DNA of 44,228 nucleotides from Candidatus Woesearchaeota archaeon (GTDB taxonomy: Archaea > Nanobdellota > Nanobdellia > Woesearchaeales > WJIZ01): NCBI GenBank assembly GCA_018221205.1, contig JAAOYF010000010.1, forward strand, positions 1 through 44,228. Reading direction: 5' to 3'. Position numbers: made by a program. Of this stretch, positions 12,001 to 18,000 are shown in pieces. Numbering within the stretch: position 1 is the first letter of the stretch; each line of letters opens with the position of its first letter.

Positions 12001-15000
12001 GAAACATCCATGCAAATGCAATCCGAGGGATGCTCTCGAATATTGTCGTCAGTTACGGTGTTCCTTTGTTACAGACAAAATCCCCTATAGAGACAGCAAA
12101 CTTGCTCTATGTCATCGCTAAACGCGAGCAAGACGATACCTCTAAAGACTTCATGCCTCATACTGGTAAAAGAGTGGCAGATACCAAATGGCTCCAGGAA
12201 TATATCATCTCAGCCCTGCCAGGCATAGGAGCAACATTGGCAAAACCCCTATTAAAGCAATTCAAATCCATTTCCAAGATAGTCAACGCCTCTGTCGACG
12301 AGCTGAAAGAAGTCGAAGGCATAGGCAAAGTCAAAGCTGAAGAGATCAGAAGGATTCTTGATGAAGAATATTAGATCGACTTTGCTAAGATTTCTAGAGT
12401 AGATAAATGATCTTTTGTGAATTGTATAGCAGTTTCTAATTCAAAGGCTTTGCATGTATAAATATCCACAGTAAACAAGGGGGGATTGGATGGATAACTA
12501 TATACATGTACACCAGAAGTCCTCCAATGTGCCCAACCACCATAACCAAGTTCGTGTGCACTGTAAGCAACGGGCCCGGCAAGAATGTCCATGTTCAACG
12601 CTCTAGCAAGTTCAGTCATATAGTCTTTCATTTCATCCGGTTTAACAATCTCTTGAGTAGTAGCTTCAATTATTGCTCTTTGTCTGAAAATCTCTGGAGC
12701 TAGGTCTCTCCATTCGTTTTCCGTTTGCCCATCAGAATATTTTTCTGGCATATTAATTACCCATAAGTAGTTAAAAATGTTATCTAATTATTAAAACTTT
12801 CTTCAAAAAAATAAGAGAATAAGCAAAAATTTTATAAAAAACTGTTAATTTTAGTAAAATATGGATAAAATAAACAGTAAGATATTACAAGTCTTAGATT
12901 GGAATGCAAGAACTCCCATAAGCAAAATAGCAAAATTCGTAAAATCAAATAAAGATGTTGTTGCTTATAGAATAAAAAAATTGGAAGAAGAGGGAATTAT
13001 CACAAATTACTTCCCAATATTAGATATGTATAAATTAGGATATCATACTTCCCGATTGTATTTAGATTTAGAAGAAATAAACGCAGAAGATGAGAAAGAC
13101 CTCATTGAATTCCTAGATAGGGAAATTGGTTGTGGATTAATTTTAAGCATGGATTATCCATATAAATATTGTATATTCCTCTGGAAAAAGTCGATATATG
13201 GGGTTGAGCAATCATTAGTCGAGATCAAGAAATATCTAGGAAAAAAACTAATTAGATATAATCATTCAATAATTTGTACTTTTAGGCAATATCCTAAAGA
13301 TTATCTCTTTGGTAAAAAAATGCATGAGGCATATAGAAGCTTGGAACCAAATAAAGAGATAGAATATGATGATAAAGATTACAGAATACTAAAGGAATTA
13401 GCAAAGAATGCTAGATTCTCAACCGTTAATATTGCAAAAACTTTATCCATTCCTCAAACAACGGTTTCTTCAAAAATAAGAAACTTAGAAAAAAAGAAAA
13501 TAATATTGGGGTATAGGGCACAAATTAATATTTCAAAATTAAAGTATCTAAATTATTTTCTGGAAATCTATCTTGATGAAAATATTAATCTAAAAGAGAT
13601 TGAAGCTTGGACCAATACAAACAAGAATGTTGTCTGGCTTCAGAAAACAATTGGAACATGTGACATAGAGGTTGAAGTTGAAGTGCAAAACAGAAAAGAA
13701 TTGGATGGGTTTATGAACAAACTAAAAACGAAATTTCTCAATATAAGAAAAATAGTCTTTTGGCCGCAGCATTATAAGAAATTAACTTTCTTACCTTAGA
13801 AACCCATTGACCTTAATCTCTTGATCCTTTCTTTCATAGGCGGATGAGTTGAGAATAACTTGACTATGCCTCCTCTCTTGCCGAAAGGGTTTGAGATGAA
13901 CATATGTGCAGTCGTTTCTGAGACAGAACTCGGCTTTAATGGCTTTCGAGCATTATCATGATCTAATTTTTCCAGCGCACTAGCCAGACCAAGGCCAGAA
14001 TGTACGAATTTAGCGCCTGTAGAATCAGCCAAGAACTCTCGTGAACGTGAAATAGCCAGCTGGATCAACGTAGCAAGGATAGGAGTCAGGATCGCCAATA
14101 CCAAAAACTCCATTGCGCTTCCTCCGTCCCTATCTCTACCCCCCATTCCTCCGAAGATCGCTGCCCAGCGCGCCATCATCGCAACATATGAGATGACTCC
14201 AGCAATGGTAGCAGCAATTGAAGAAATCAAGATATCTTTATTCTTGACATGAGCCAATTCATGAGCAGCAACTCCTTTGAGCTCAGAATCATTCAATAAG
14301 GCGATGATTCCTTCGGAAAAAGCGACTGCAGCATGCTTCTGATTTCGTCCAGTAGCAAAAGCATTGCTGTGCTGTGTAGGAAGGACATAGACTTTAGGCA
14401 TAGGTATCCTAGCTAATTGAGAAACTTCCCGTACAAGCTTATACAGCCGAGGATTATCTGTTTCAGTGATGAGTTTAGCCCGATACATCTTAAGAACAAC
14501 TTTATCAGACCACCAATAAGCCCCAAAATTCATCAGGACAGAGAAGATAAGCGCAATAGTCAGGCCTTGCATACCTCCGATTAAGTTGCCTACCCACAAT
14601 AACAATCCAGTAAGCAATCCTAATAGTGCAACAGTCCGAAGTTGATTCCCGATTGACATGAAAATAAGTAGTTATTTTCTTCTTTTAAAGTTATCCTTTA
14701 AGCTTTTTTCTTTGATTCGTAAGACTTCGCGAAGCGAATGTCTTACTTAAGCGCTTTTTACGAGATTTCATGCAAATATTATTTGCATGAATTTCGAACT
14801 TCGTTCGAATTTTTTTGCAAAAATCTCTCTATCCTTTGATGTCAAGGGTTATTTTCTTCGTCTTTCCATCAATACTTTTGACAATCTTATGCCCTTTCAA
14901 TTTTTTCTTGATCTCATCGAATGAATATTTTTCCCGAGCCTTCTTTATTTCCTTCAAGATTTCATCAACTAGCTTGTAATGTTCATAGATAAGTTCCCCT

Positions 15001-18000
15001 TTCTTCTGCATATCAGAAGATTTCTTCTTCAAAGCCGTGATATGGTCTTCCTGGGACTTGATTATCCCCACCACCTTATCGATCTGAGCTTGATGTTTTG
15101 AGATGAACTCACTTTTTTTAGCATAACTCTCGATATAAGCATGATCCAATGCTCCATTGAATGATGTAAACTCCTTCCCTTTCTCTTGAGATGCGAAAGC
15201 AAAAGGCAAAACAATCATATTTTCAAGGACCCTTGCTTTGATAGGATGATCAATCACCTTCCTCATGGCTTGAAAGACTTTCTTATCTACTTTTTTCGTC
15301 TTCTTATCGACTGCAGCCAACTGACAGATCTCTTCCGCATATATTCCACCAAGACCGATGTCTTTAGCCAGTGCTGTTACAAGCTCCTTTCCCGAGACGA
15401 GTTTCTCAAACTCACTTTGTTTCAAGGAAAAAGCATCATGTTCTTTTTTAGGAAAGACATACGTCTTGCCTTTTCTGATCTCTCTATCCTTCCATTTCTT
15501 CTGATTCAGCGCATTCAGGATCGTCTCACCATCAGTCACCACAATATTTCCCTGTCCGAACAATTCAATAAAGAGAGACAACTTCTTTTCTTTCTCAAAA
15601 ACAAGCTTTGCTATCCGTTCAGAGCCCACTTGACTGACTTCCCGAAGGCGGGCATTGTCAAGGTGCTTCCGTAAGAACATGCAGAAGCCGCCAGGCTCAT
15701 CATATCGTTCTTTATGCTGAGAAAGAAACATGAATTTCCCAGAAATTATCCGCAGCAACTGCTTTCCCTTGCTCGGAACATGAAATTGTATCAGCAATTC
15801 CTCTTTATGGGGGTGATAGATCTTATCCACTCGTCCACCGACTAAGAAATTCATCTCTTTCAGGAGATAATGCAGATCGACAGAGCTGATAGATTTCATT
15901 CGAACTTAAATGGACTGATCACATCCCCTAATTTCTTCTGAGCATCCTTCAACCTCTCACGTTGCTGCTCCAGATGATCATGGAACATCTGAGGGATGTC
16001 TTCCTCGACCTTATAGATCTCTTCGATCCTGTCCAATCTCTCCAATAATTTTCCAGTTTTGATCGAGAACTGTTCCTCATAGTTATTTTTTGTATAGGCC
16101 TTCGAGAAGACCATCTCGAACAGCTTCTTGAGATCCTCATACTTCGGAATGAAGCCGATAGGAGTCTCTAATGCGCCGAATTCTTCGTGCACTCTCCCTT
16201 CCATCCACATCAACCATACTTTCTTATCGGTCTTGGCGTTCAGGAACTCACCATCTTCCTTCAGGAAGTAATTCGTCGAAAAGATCAATGGCGGAACATC
16301 AAGACCCTCTCCGAATTTGAGATGATTCTCGATGTATACTCCTAAAGGAACAACTAAAAACTCAACATTCGACATCGGATTATGTTTCCGCACCCCTTCT
16401 TTACCGAGAGCAGCAGCTGTTGTTTCACTTTCGACAGAAGCGCCGATGTAAACACCATGTGCCCAGCTCAAGCTTTGCAATAAAGGAGGATTTGTATCAG
16501 AATCTCTCCCACCATAGATAAAACCCCTGATCCGGACACCCTCTGGATTATGCAGATTCTCGTCGACATTCTCCAATTCGCTTATCCGAAGGCAGAAGCG
16601 GGCATTCTTGTGTGCAGCCAGTACCTCTTTACCATCTACGGTCATGCCTTTCTTCCACTTTCCTATGAAATTAGTCCCTTCTGAAGGGAGATCTTTGCCC
16701 ATATTGAGCCAATAAGGAATATCTTCCTGGACAAGGACATTAGAGAAGATGATTTCTCTTGGACTTGTCAAGGTCTTGTAGATGAGTGGATCATCTTTTG
16801 GATTGACATCAGCGATGATGCCAAAGATACCTTGTTCGACATTCACACCCCGAGCATAGCCTTCTTCATCAGGCCTGATATAAGCAATATCATCTCCGAT
16901 GATCGACTGTCCAGGGATCATCGCAGTGCTGGTCTTGCCGCAAGCACTCGGGAAAGCTCCTGTAAAGTACGTAATTCTTCCTTTCCTCTTAGCCCCCATC
17001 AGGAACATATGTTCACACAACCAATCCTCTTTATTTGCCTTGCTGATAGCTAAGCGTAAAGCTAATTTCTTCAATCCGACGCTGTTTCCAGCATACTGGT
17101 TGTTGACGGTGAAGACTCTTTCCTCATCAAGATCCATATACACTCTTCTTTTATCGATATCAACACAGACACCATTCTCTAACTTGCCGGCAGAATGCAC
17201 GAATAAGAAGAAATCATCAAGTTCCTTGAACATATCAAAGCCCTGCCTATACAGGATATCTTCACTATGAAGGACATAAGCAGAATCTGTTATCTGCATC
17301 GCAGGCAAAGAGAACTTTGAATTGTGTGGACCTAAACAATAGAATTTAACCAGCATCTCTTTTCCTTCCATGATGCCGTCCATGATCTCAAAGACCTCTT
17401 TCAGGCCCTCTTCTCGGTCAGTTGTCTTGATGGCCTTACCCAATTGCACTCCAGGCTTAACTAAGACACGAGTATTCACCAGATCCCTTCCCTGATCCTT
17501 AGGAGAATCATAGTGGATAGTATGCCCCTCCATCTTCAAAGGCTTTTCTTCATTGTTCTTCACTGCCAGCTGCTTGATATACTCCTGATCTTTCTCAGAA
17601 TCATTGAGTATCGTGACAGAAGCAGGTTTTAATAGTGTGATGTACTCGTCTAGAATCTTCTCTACTTTCTTATTCTTCAAAGATGCTAATTTTTCAGAAC
17701 CATTGATATTCATGGTCACACCCCCTCGACCAGAAACAGAGGTATATAGTTTATATATTTATCGCTGCCTGATAGATGTTCTCGAATAACTCCTCAATCT
17801 GATCCTCAGCGACAGCAGAGAATGCAATCCGTAATATCTCTGGAATGGCAATGACCCCAGTATCATATTTCTCAAGAAGTACCTGTCTCATCTTCTCAGA
17901 ATCAAGATTTTTCAGCTTGATGCACATGAAATAGCCAGAATTATACGGCAGAGGTTCAAAATACTTGGAAAACTTCTCGTCTGCAAGGACTTTCCGAACT

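What a model noticed while it worked through the whole genome (the two positions that open the first line are those of the whole stretch)
14829..15899. aRqcH (Rqc2/NEMF) split into two unlinked genes
The ribosome quality-control factor aRqcH is encoded by two separate genes: g00759 (NFACT-N and following part) and g00311 (C12:288-1064, NFACT-R and C-terminus). The split is conserved across Woesearchaeales.
Evidence so far: g00759 matches residues 1-370 and g00311 residues 467-670 of M. jannaschii aRqcH. C half in 22 of 23 other order genomes, always in frames of 251-316 aa. In 3 of 3 single-contig genomes the halves are 180-418 kb apart; outgroup G201 has both in one 611-aa frame. No paper with aRqcH and split.
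(Added by a program. Inside this text positions count along the whole contig: contig position 1 is position 1 of the stretch shown here. "Call 12" and the like, gene names such as g00115 and contig names such as C1 are that model's own, and its searches are not shown. The text may have been shortened before it was handed on; [...] marks where a part breaks off. The agent that wrote the report below was given it as the finding of a first reader that could run no searches.)

Follow-up and report, generated by a model that had tools for sequence, protein, structure and literature searches.

The report
Ribosome-rescue protein RqcH in two genes
This small archaeon, like nearly all sampled members of its order, encodes the ribosome quality-control protein RqcH as two distant genes whose products are predicted to zip back together, but the same gene family was already listed as split in Nanoarchaeum under an older name, so this extends a known oddity rather than revealing a new one.

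Summary
The split is real. Window 14829-15899 (356 aa) and C12:288-1064 (258 aa) tile the archaeal RqcH model NF041120 at positions 1-378 and 381-645. The cut lies at a beta-turn of the M domain, at the tip of the coiled coil. Of 153 other order genomes, 144 have both halves and none has one joined frame. A complex prediction pairs the halves as an antiparallel coiled coil with a shared sheet (0.74, best control 0.00; may reflect likeness to solved RqcH). It likely works as a heterodimeric RqcH on split 50S subunits; tailing is inferred. It is not new as a split: Podar 2013 lists a split 'predicted RNA-binding protein' in N. equitans and Nst1, whose Nst1 halves are arCOG01695 = COG1293 = RqcH. 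In eight paper searches I found neither the RqcH identity of that split nor its reach across Woesearchaeales. This scan has reported the same split at least seven times on other DNA.

The parts
14829..15899 (-). RqcH N half, 356 aa: NFACT-N, HhH, first coiled-coil helix and most of the M domain
   Evidence: (NF041120 1-378 of 645, 265 bits)
15564..15620 (-). Stretch from E94-R95 (B. subtilis D97/R98) to E112 (B. subtilis E121 of EIM), the tRNA-anticodon-contacting motifs
   Evidence: R95 34 of 34, E94 33 of 34, E112 34 of 34; mapping; role from bioRxiv 2020.09.03.281279 passages
14934..15107 (-). Residues 265-322: coiled-coil helix 1 and following helix, predicted to pair antiparallel with residues 12-59 of the C half
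   Evidence: interface list
14838..14861 (-). Residues 347-354: last beta-strand before the cut; these residues and C-half residues 1-9 are both in the predicted interface (strand pairing inferred)
15896..17719 (-). Context: GTP-type PEP carboxykinase whose stop overlaps the RqcH-N start (ATGA); PEPCK lies beside the N half only in this genome, both same-family genomes and one other fetched locus
288..1064 (+). OUTSIDE THE WINDOW, coordinates on contig C12 (locus L001): RqcH C half, 258 aa: last M-domain strand, coiled-coil helix 2, NFACT-R and archaeal C-terminal domain; TATA-like TTAAATA about 29 bases upstream of the ATG
   Evidence: (NF041120 381-645, 304 bits)

Best explanation
RqcH is encoded as two intact, conserved, unlinked genes cut at a beta-turn of the M domain, and the two proteins are predicted to reassemble into one heterodimeric RqcH that likely extends and tags stalled nascent chains on split 50S subunits. 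SHOWN: two genes; precise cut with at most about 2 model positions lost; conserved motifs in both halves; co-occurrence; Pelota, ABCE1 and Cdc48 in the same genome. PREDICTED: the N-half helix 265-322 and the C-half helix 12-59 form the antiparallel coiled coil. The C half's first strand likely completes the M-domain sheet (inferred from the interface residues and the alignment). INFERRED from B. subtilis RqcH and yeast Rqc2: after Pelota/ABCE1 splitting, the rebuilt CC-M tip binds uL11/H44 at the stalk base, NFACT-R binds the A-site finger, and NFACT-N reads the tRNA anticodon loop. This would add an mRNA-independent, probably Ala-rich tail that marks the chain for proteolysis. I found no paper showing tailing in any archaeon. 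The fission is old and tolerated because the long coiled coil supplies the interface.
For: Tiling of NF041120 at 1-378 | 381-645; summed 569 bits against a cut-off of 400 that neither half reaches. On intact G092, 19 of 34 N halves end at residue 388 and 39 of 40 C halves start at 390-391. Motifs kept: R95 34/34, E112 34/34, D105 and H109 40/40. Purifying selection against two same-family genomes: codon-position identity 0.65-0.90 at positions 1-2 and 0.39-0.48 at position 3; C half dN 0.12-0.18 against dS 1.2-1.5; N half dN 0.25, dS 1.2 in the one of three pairs that could be computed. Both halves in 144 of 153 order genomes, one half in 6, neither in 3. TATA-like boxes at -33..-21 in 25 of 40 C halves and 21 of 34 N halves, against 2 and 4 in a control window. 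Complex score 0.74, best of 3 controls 0.00; that mark was reached by 116 of 157 solved and 2 of 215 mismatched pairs; runs agree in at least 88% of contacts; partner pLDDT at least 83. In 4 fetched genomes of other orders where no N half was found, the NFACT-R gene lacks the coiled-coil helix or carries another domain in its place. Pelota, Cdc48 and ABCE1 are present.
Against: No experiment on these proteins. Halves of a split gene tend to pass the complex test by likeness to solved RqcH/NEMF structures, so one search shows the likeness, not binding. The D of the DR motif is E (33 of 34) and the W of DWH is V (39 of 40). Intact relatives show D or E and I/V/L at the same columns, so this is not special to the split, but activity with these residues is untested. 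Solo NFACT-R genes survive in 5 genomes where no N half was found, so the C-half domain can have a use of its own. 31 of 47 genomes of other orders show neither half, so the factor appears dispensable in close kin. Burroughs and Aravind 2019 (PMC6514570, passages) leave the archaeal role open, including RNA modification.
Confidence: 0.72

Rival explanations
1. The halves reassemble, but the archaeal complex does not tail nascent chains; it acts in another large-subunit or RNA process (ribosome biogenesis or quality check, RNA modification, anti-reassociation only).
For: No archaeal tailing data in the papers found. PMC6514570 and PMC4075521 passages propose RNA-modification roles and a Mut7-C/AMMECR1 neighbourhood. 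C halves lie beside yhbY (CRM domain) in 22 fetched loci, and N halves beside an RsmB/F methyltransferase in 16 loci, some of them duplicates.
Against: The residues that bind tRNA in B. subtilis RqcH are kept in nearly all N halves. Human NEMF is the closest solved relative of both halves. Pelota and ABCE1 are present.
Confidence: 0.15
2. The two halves exchange or act partly on their own: the C half is a ribosome-resident adaptor (like solo NFACT-R proteins such as CCDC25/Jlp2) and the N half is recruited conditionally.
For: Separate promoters in most loci. The C half is more conserved (75-81% against 58-62% identity). Solo NFACT-R genes persist where no N half was found. B. subtilis NFACT-N/HhH is flexible and not needed for 50S binding.
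Against: Tight co-occurrence, 144 of 153. The predicted interface is large, 118-130 contacts. The interface helix is absent from the 4 solo genes fetched, as expected of obligate partners.
Confidence: 0.1
3. Artefact or decay: assembly break, frameshift or pseudogene.
For: The assembly has 74 contigs and the halves lie on different contigs.
Against: Both frames are complete and lie inside their contigs. The same cut recurs in 34 N and 40 C halves and in 80 of 80 named C-half loci, none with an N half in up to 4 kb of flank. There are 9 same-contig pairs 180-585 kb apart, and purifying selection. A differing low-depth contig of run X1 also reads a stop after Gly356 (my reading of table 5c).
Confidence: 0.01
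4. The halves are joined covalently after transcription or translation (trans-splicing, split intein).
For: Trans-spliced tRNAs and a split DNA polymerase are listed for N. equitans (that the polymerase uses a split intein is recalled).
Against: No extra residues at either end: N halves stop right after the last strand and C halves begin at the next. No intein family in Pfam. No Rfam match in L001. No joint between the loci in the contigs laid (probably DNA, low depth).
Confidence: 0.02

Closest known systems
Split 'Predicted RNA-binding protein' of Nanoarchaeota: NEQ438/NEQ506 (N. equitans) and Nst1_176/Nst1_251 (Podar et al. 2013, PMC3655853, Table 1; arCOG01695 = COG01293)
   Same: Same family (supplement files 2 and 6; COG1293 = RqcH), two non-adjacent genes, post-translational assembly presumed by the authors.
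   Different: Podar et al. describe the shared same-site splits as intact in other archaea and give no function. Here the split is in a 1.3-Mb genome and in 144 of 153 genomes of the order. That the cut site equals that of NEQ438/506 was not tested on named sequences. G059, a 0.5-Mb single-contig genome of another order, is cut at the same site with the halves 62 kb apart.
Single-chain archaeal RqcH (NCBIfam NF041120); intact forms in G018, G089, G092, G142, G183 and in Ca. Tiddalikarchaeum anstoanum (P0006)
   Same: All domains, in order, with the same conserved residues.
   Different: One chain of 589-737 aa against two chains of about 360 and 260 aa. Neither half reaches the 400-bit cut-off, and databases name C halves 'DUF814 domain-containing protein'.
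B. subtilis RqcH (PDB 7AQC/7AS8), yeast Rqc2 (8AAF), human NEMF (3J92, 9GY4)
   Same: NFACT-N, HhH, coiled coil with M domain and NFACT-R. The C half starts at the strand of RqcH residue 360 / NEMF 461.
   Different: Single chains with shown tailing. D97 is E here and W484 is V. The C-terminal part beyond about residue 190 of the C half has no match to NEMF's NFACT-C in these searches.
Other split informational genes of DPANN archaea (reverse gyrase, tRNA synthetases, Dph1/2 in Parv-, Pace- and Woesearchaeota; PMC6349945)
   Same: Fission of an informational gene into unlinked parts in small-genome archaea.
   Different: Different families; RqcH is not named in that review's passages on split genes.
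Solo NFACT-R with a short coiled coil (CCDC25/Jlp2; PMC4075521)
   Same: An NFACT-R domain outside a full NFACT protein.
   Different: Those coexist with full-length NEMF in eukaryotes. Here the C half carries the M-domain strand and CC2 helix, and no intact gene exists in the genome.

Membership tests
NFACT / RqcH-Rqc2-NEMF (COG1293, NF041120) | NFACT-N plus HhH domains | tested here: met
NFACT / RqcH-Rqc2-NEMF (COG1293, NF041120) | Antiparallel coiled coil with M domain | tested here: met
   present across the two halves; profile tiling; model (prediction)
NFACT / RqcH-Rqc2-NEMF (COG1293, NF041120) | NFACT-R domain | tested here: met
   PF05670 106.6 bits, cut-off 29.8; D105 and H109 in 40 of 40
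NFACT / RqcH-Rqc2-NEMF (COG1293, NF041120) | tRNA-binding DR and EIM motifs | tested here: met
   R95 34/34, E112 34/34; D is conservatively E in 33/34, as in 2 of 4 distinct intact Nanoarchaeia lineages aligned
NFACT / RqcH-Rqc2-NEMF (COG1293, NF041120) | One polypeptide over the NF041120 cut-off (400 bits) | tested here: not met
   265 and 304 bits separately: filed as a split member, not as a canonical single-chain RqcH
NFACT / RqcH-Rqc2-NEMF (COG1293, NF041120) | Binds peptidyl-tRNA large subunits and adds untemplated tails | not testable with these tools
   needs biochemistry
Nanoarchaeal split COG1293 (NEQ438/506 type) | Same orthologous family | tested here: met
   (the arCOG rows seen are for the Nst1 pair; the NEQ pair is tied to it by Table 1)
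Nanoarchaeal split COG1293 (NEQ438/506 type) | Two non-adjacent genes and no intact copy | tested here: met
Nanoarchaeal split COG1293 (NEQ438/506 type) | Same cut site as NEQ438/506 | not tested
   named sequences not obtained; an unnamed small genome of another order (G059) has the same site
Nanoarchaeal split COG1293 (NEQ438/506 type) | Single origin of the split | tested here: inconclusive
   C-half tree: 17 of 18 split rows form one group (SH-aLRT 94) and G059 falls apart; one clade not rejected, p-AU 0.126 (quick tree, LG+G4); 2 changes also in the 68-row quick tree

The most novel reading that the evidence does not exclude
The split turned RqcH into a two-part switch: a conserved ribosome-anchoring C subunit and a separately transcribed, exchangeable tRNA-delivering N subunit, so tailing is controlled by subunit assembly. 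It arose once early in Nanoarchaeia (with the N-cysS-C order of G056 and G141 as a possible fossil of the inserting event), and where the N half was later lost the NFACT-R remnant took on a function of its own.
Probability: 0.12. Interest if true: 0.65.

Novelty: new member of a known kind. Interest (0 to 1): 0.3.

Why it matters
It connects an old catalogue entry (split 'RNA-binding protein' of Nanoarchaeum) to ribosome quality control. It also shows the split in nearly all sampled Woesearchaeales, so it is not only a mark of the most reduced genomes. It explains why these genomes would be scored as lacking RqcH, since both halves fall under the NCBIfam cut-off. It gives a natural cut site at which RqcH/NEMF could be divided to test 50S anchoring and tRNA delivery separately. 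It does not by itself settle whether archaea tail nascent chains.

Tried and rejected
Missing 100 residues: rejected. A second or intact copy in the genome: none. Link to Cdc48 or Pelota, a lead from earlier notes: no tblastn hit in 123 C-half and 41 N-half loci with 1.5-4 kb flanks, some loci duplicated. Split shared by other DPANN phyla, a lead from earlier notes: not confirmed. Among the best 120 of 403 short relatives, the few with a taxon name were all Woesearchaeota or Nanoarchaeota, and genome searches could not leave the phylum. Many of the 80 loci are titled 'uncultured Methanosarcinales archaeon'; I take these as loose labels (inference from 49-62% identity to the query, like the Woesearchaeota rows) and did not count them as another phylum. 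The careful tree did not finish; quick trees were used. One search used 36 of 68 rows, leaving out solo NFACT-R rows, long branches G010 and P0026, and near-duplicates. dS was saturated under NG86 and YN00 for all 6 pairs and under LWL85 for 2. Expression: no RNA holder listed; X1 is probably DNA and X2 gave no cover. The Fer4_RLI domain search was blank, though full ABCE1 was found. The cluster look-up named only one of 10 proteins. Paper searches without a report of split RqcH under that name: (0 papers). Burroughs and Aravind 2014 has 0 occurrences of 'split' in the main text. The 2026 Nanobdellota preprint has 0 of Rqc/NFACT/NEMF in its main text; its supplements were not seen and may bear on novelty, as may subscription papers on Nanopusillus, Nanoclepta and Nanobdella (recalled, not read).
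Full report
OBSERVATION. Window 14829-15899 (-) is an intact 356-aa frame whose ATG overlaps the stop of an upstream PEP carboxykinase gene. 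C12:288-1064 (+) is an intact 258-aa frame. Pfam puts the first on NFACT_N 2-361 and the second on NFACT_N 370-421 plus NFACT-R. On the archaeal RqcH equivalog NF041120 (645 positions) they cover 1-378 and 381-645 with 265 and 304 bits, each under the 400 cut-off. The genome (1.28 Mb, 74 contigs, 94.8% complete) has no other copy. The best solved relative of both halves is human NEMF.

WHERE THE CUT IS. I aligned 34 N halves, 40 C halves and 5 intact proteins (two contig-cut ORFs and duplicates left out). N halves run 305-388 aa and end on a beta-strand. C halves run 245-277 aa and begin M-x-I-x-L, followed by K-S-x-E-x-N-A. On intact G092, 19 of 34 N halves end at 388 (most others 378-391, two misaligned at 430) and 39 of 40 C halves start at 390-391. 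On G089 the figures are 387 and 388-389. The cut is therefore a turn between two M-domain strands at the tip of the coiled coil, and each half keeps one long helix. Against NEMF a similar gap appears (profile matches end at 384 and resume at 461), which I attribute to a divergent M domain (inference). I did not have the M. jannaschii sequence.

DISTRIBUTION. I searched 200 other genomes of the phylum, all at least 93% complete, with PF05833 and PF05670, then the unclear ones with my own alignments. Of 153 from the window's order, 146 have an N half (some cut by contig ends), 148 a C half, 144 both, 2 N only, 4 C only and 3 neither. No C half lies in a frame over 479 aa. Nine pairs share a contig, 180-585 kb apart; the rest are on different contigs. 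Of 47 from other orders of the class, 5 are intact (G018, G089, G092, G142, G183), 5 have both halves apart (G029 with a contig-cut C half, G056, G057, G059, G141), 1 has the N half only, 5 have only a short NFACT-R gene, and in 31 neither was found. Eighty named loci, mostly Woesearchaeota/Nanoarchaeota, all hold stand-alone C halves with no N half in the flanks. Intact proteins also occur in Ca. Tiddalikarchaeum and Thermoplasmatota. In quick C-half trees the split state needs 2 changes; one origin is neither shown nor rejected (p-AU 0.126).

BOTH HALVES ARE MAINTAINED. Against two same-family genomes, third codon positions are near saturation while positions 1-2 are conserved. dN/dS is about 0.1 for the C half and about 0.2 for the one computable N pair. 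The tRNA-contacting residues described for B. subtilis RqcH (D97/R98, E121; bioRxiv 2020.09.03.281279, passages) are E94/R95 and E112, kept in 33-34 of 34. D and H of the NFACT-R DWH motif are kept in 40 of 40, while W is V, as in intact archaeal forms. TATA-like boxes sit at -33..-21 of the start in 25 of 40 C and 21 of 34 N genes (control window 2 and 4), which fits separate leaderless transcripts (inference). The window's own N gene instead seems coupled to PEPCK.

REASSEMBLY. N 240-356 with C 1-70 scored 0.74 in ipSAE, best of 3 controls 0.00. That mark was reached by 116 of 157 solved and 2 of 215 mismatched pairs (only roughly applicable with my alignments); runs agree in at least 88% of contacts and partner pLDDT is at least 83. 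The best contacts run antiparallel (276-44, 290-30, 301-19), and N 347-354 and C 1-9 are both in the interface. Halves of a split gene tend to pass by likeness to solved structures, so this shows geometry, not binding. A natural control points the same way: in the 4 fetched genomes with no detectable N half, the NFACT-R gene lacks the first strand and helix (G189, G106) or has another domain there (G031 NUDIX, G086 unknown). Pelota, Cdc48 and ABCE1 are encoded in the genome but not beside either half in 164 loci.

MECHANISM. Most likely (0.72) a heterodimer that behaves as ordinary RqcH. The B. subtilis protein touches the 50S only through NFACT-R (A-site finger) and the distal CC-M (uL11/H44), and contacts tRNA through NFACT-N. 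Here NFACT-R is on the C half, NFACT-N on the N half, and the CC-M tip needs both, so function would require assembly. Tailing, its amino acid and the downstream protease are inferred; PMC6514570 (passages) treats the archaeal role as open. Rivals: a non-tailing RNA or ribosome role (0.15), conditional or independent subunits (0.10), covalent joining (0.02), artefact (0.01).

WHAT IS KNOWN. Podar et al. [quoted passage not shown] Nst1_176 and Nst1_251 are arCOG01695, and arCOG01695 is COG01293. COG1293 is RqcH. The split of this family has thus been in print since at least 2013; that Waters 2003 listed it first is recalled, not read. I did not verify the cut site on the named proteins. Eight searches and passages of PMC4075521, PMC6514570, PMC6349945, PMC8407392 and bioRxiv 10.64898/2026.05.13.725050 gave no statement that the split protein is RqcH or that Woesearchaeales share it. 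Subscription papers and bioRxiv supplements were not visible. Seven earlier notes of this scan describe the same split in other genomes; they are leads, not support.

VERDICT. Real, clean and order-wide; a new member and wide extension of a known split, with an updated functional identity. Interest 0.3.

Noticed in passing
L066:2110-6377 (G056) and L065:434-6695 (G141): In two families outside the order, the halves flank cysS on one strand with overlapping or abutting ends (N half - cysS - C half), followed by rps19e- and PDCD5-like genes (names from sequence likeness, recalled). cysS lay beside a half in no other fetched locus. Possibly a fossil of the fission, or secondary clustering.
   Followed up: partly
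L065:3460-5745 (G141): cysS itself is in two ORFs (240 and 251 aa; Pfam tRNA-synt_1e 2-176 and 188-300) around a 270-aa ORF with a phage endonuclease I domain; no Rfam intron match. Looks like a synthetase in pieces around a free-standing endonuclease.
   Followed up: partly
L181:1244-2067 (G189), L183:1534-2144 (G106), L184:1426-2232 (G031), L182:1246-1968 (G086): Solo NFACT-R genes in genomes where no N half was found: beside yhbY (G189 by Pfam, G106 by likeness), fused to NUDIX (G031), or fused to an unknown domain before rps19e (G086).
   Followed up: partly
window 14718-14768 and G000 C14:6588-6638: A 51-base element (92% identical) with a predicted hairpin occurs twice in the genome: upstream of htpX in the window and about 15 bases upstream of the cdc48 start. 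Both are proteostasis genes, so it may be a shared promoter/operator or a small repeat.
   Followed up: partly
L001:1094-1792 (C12): A 124-aa ORF with weak YoeB/ParE-like matches (under the cut-offs) and a 107-aa ORF upstream of it, convergent with the C half: probable type II toxin-antitoxin pair.
   Followed up: no
L085-L164: Recurrent neighbours of the C half in 80 loci: YjeF_N (25 loci), an NAD(P)H-hydrate dehydratase-like gene (24), HIT (24), CxxCxxCC protein (19), YhbY (13).
   Followed up: no
families f58, f59, f62, f65, f66 and others: 31 of 47 sampled genomes of other orders show neither half, suggesting whole lineages without RqcH.
   Followed up: no
G000 C14:6653-8817 and C9:34418-34771: The Cdc48 match runs off the end of C14 and a C-terminal piece lies at the end of C9: probably one gene broken by the assembly, not a split.
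   Followed up: no
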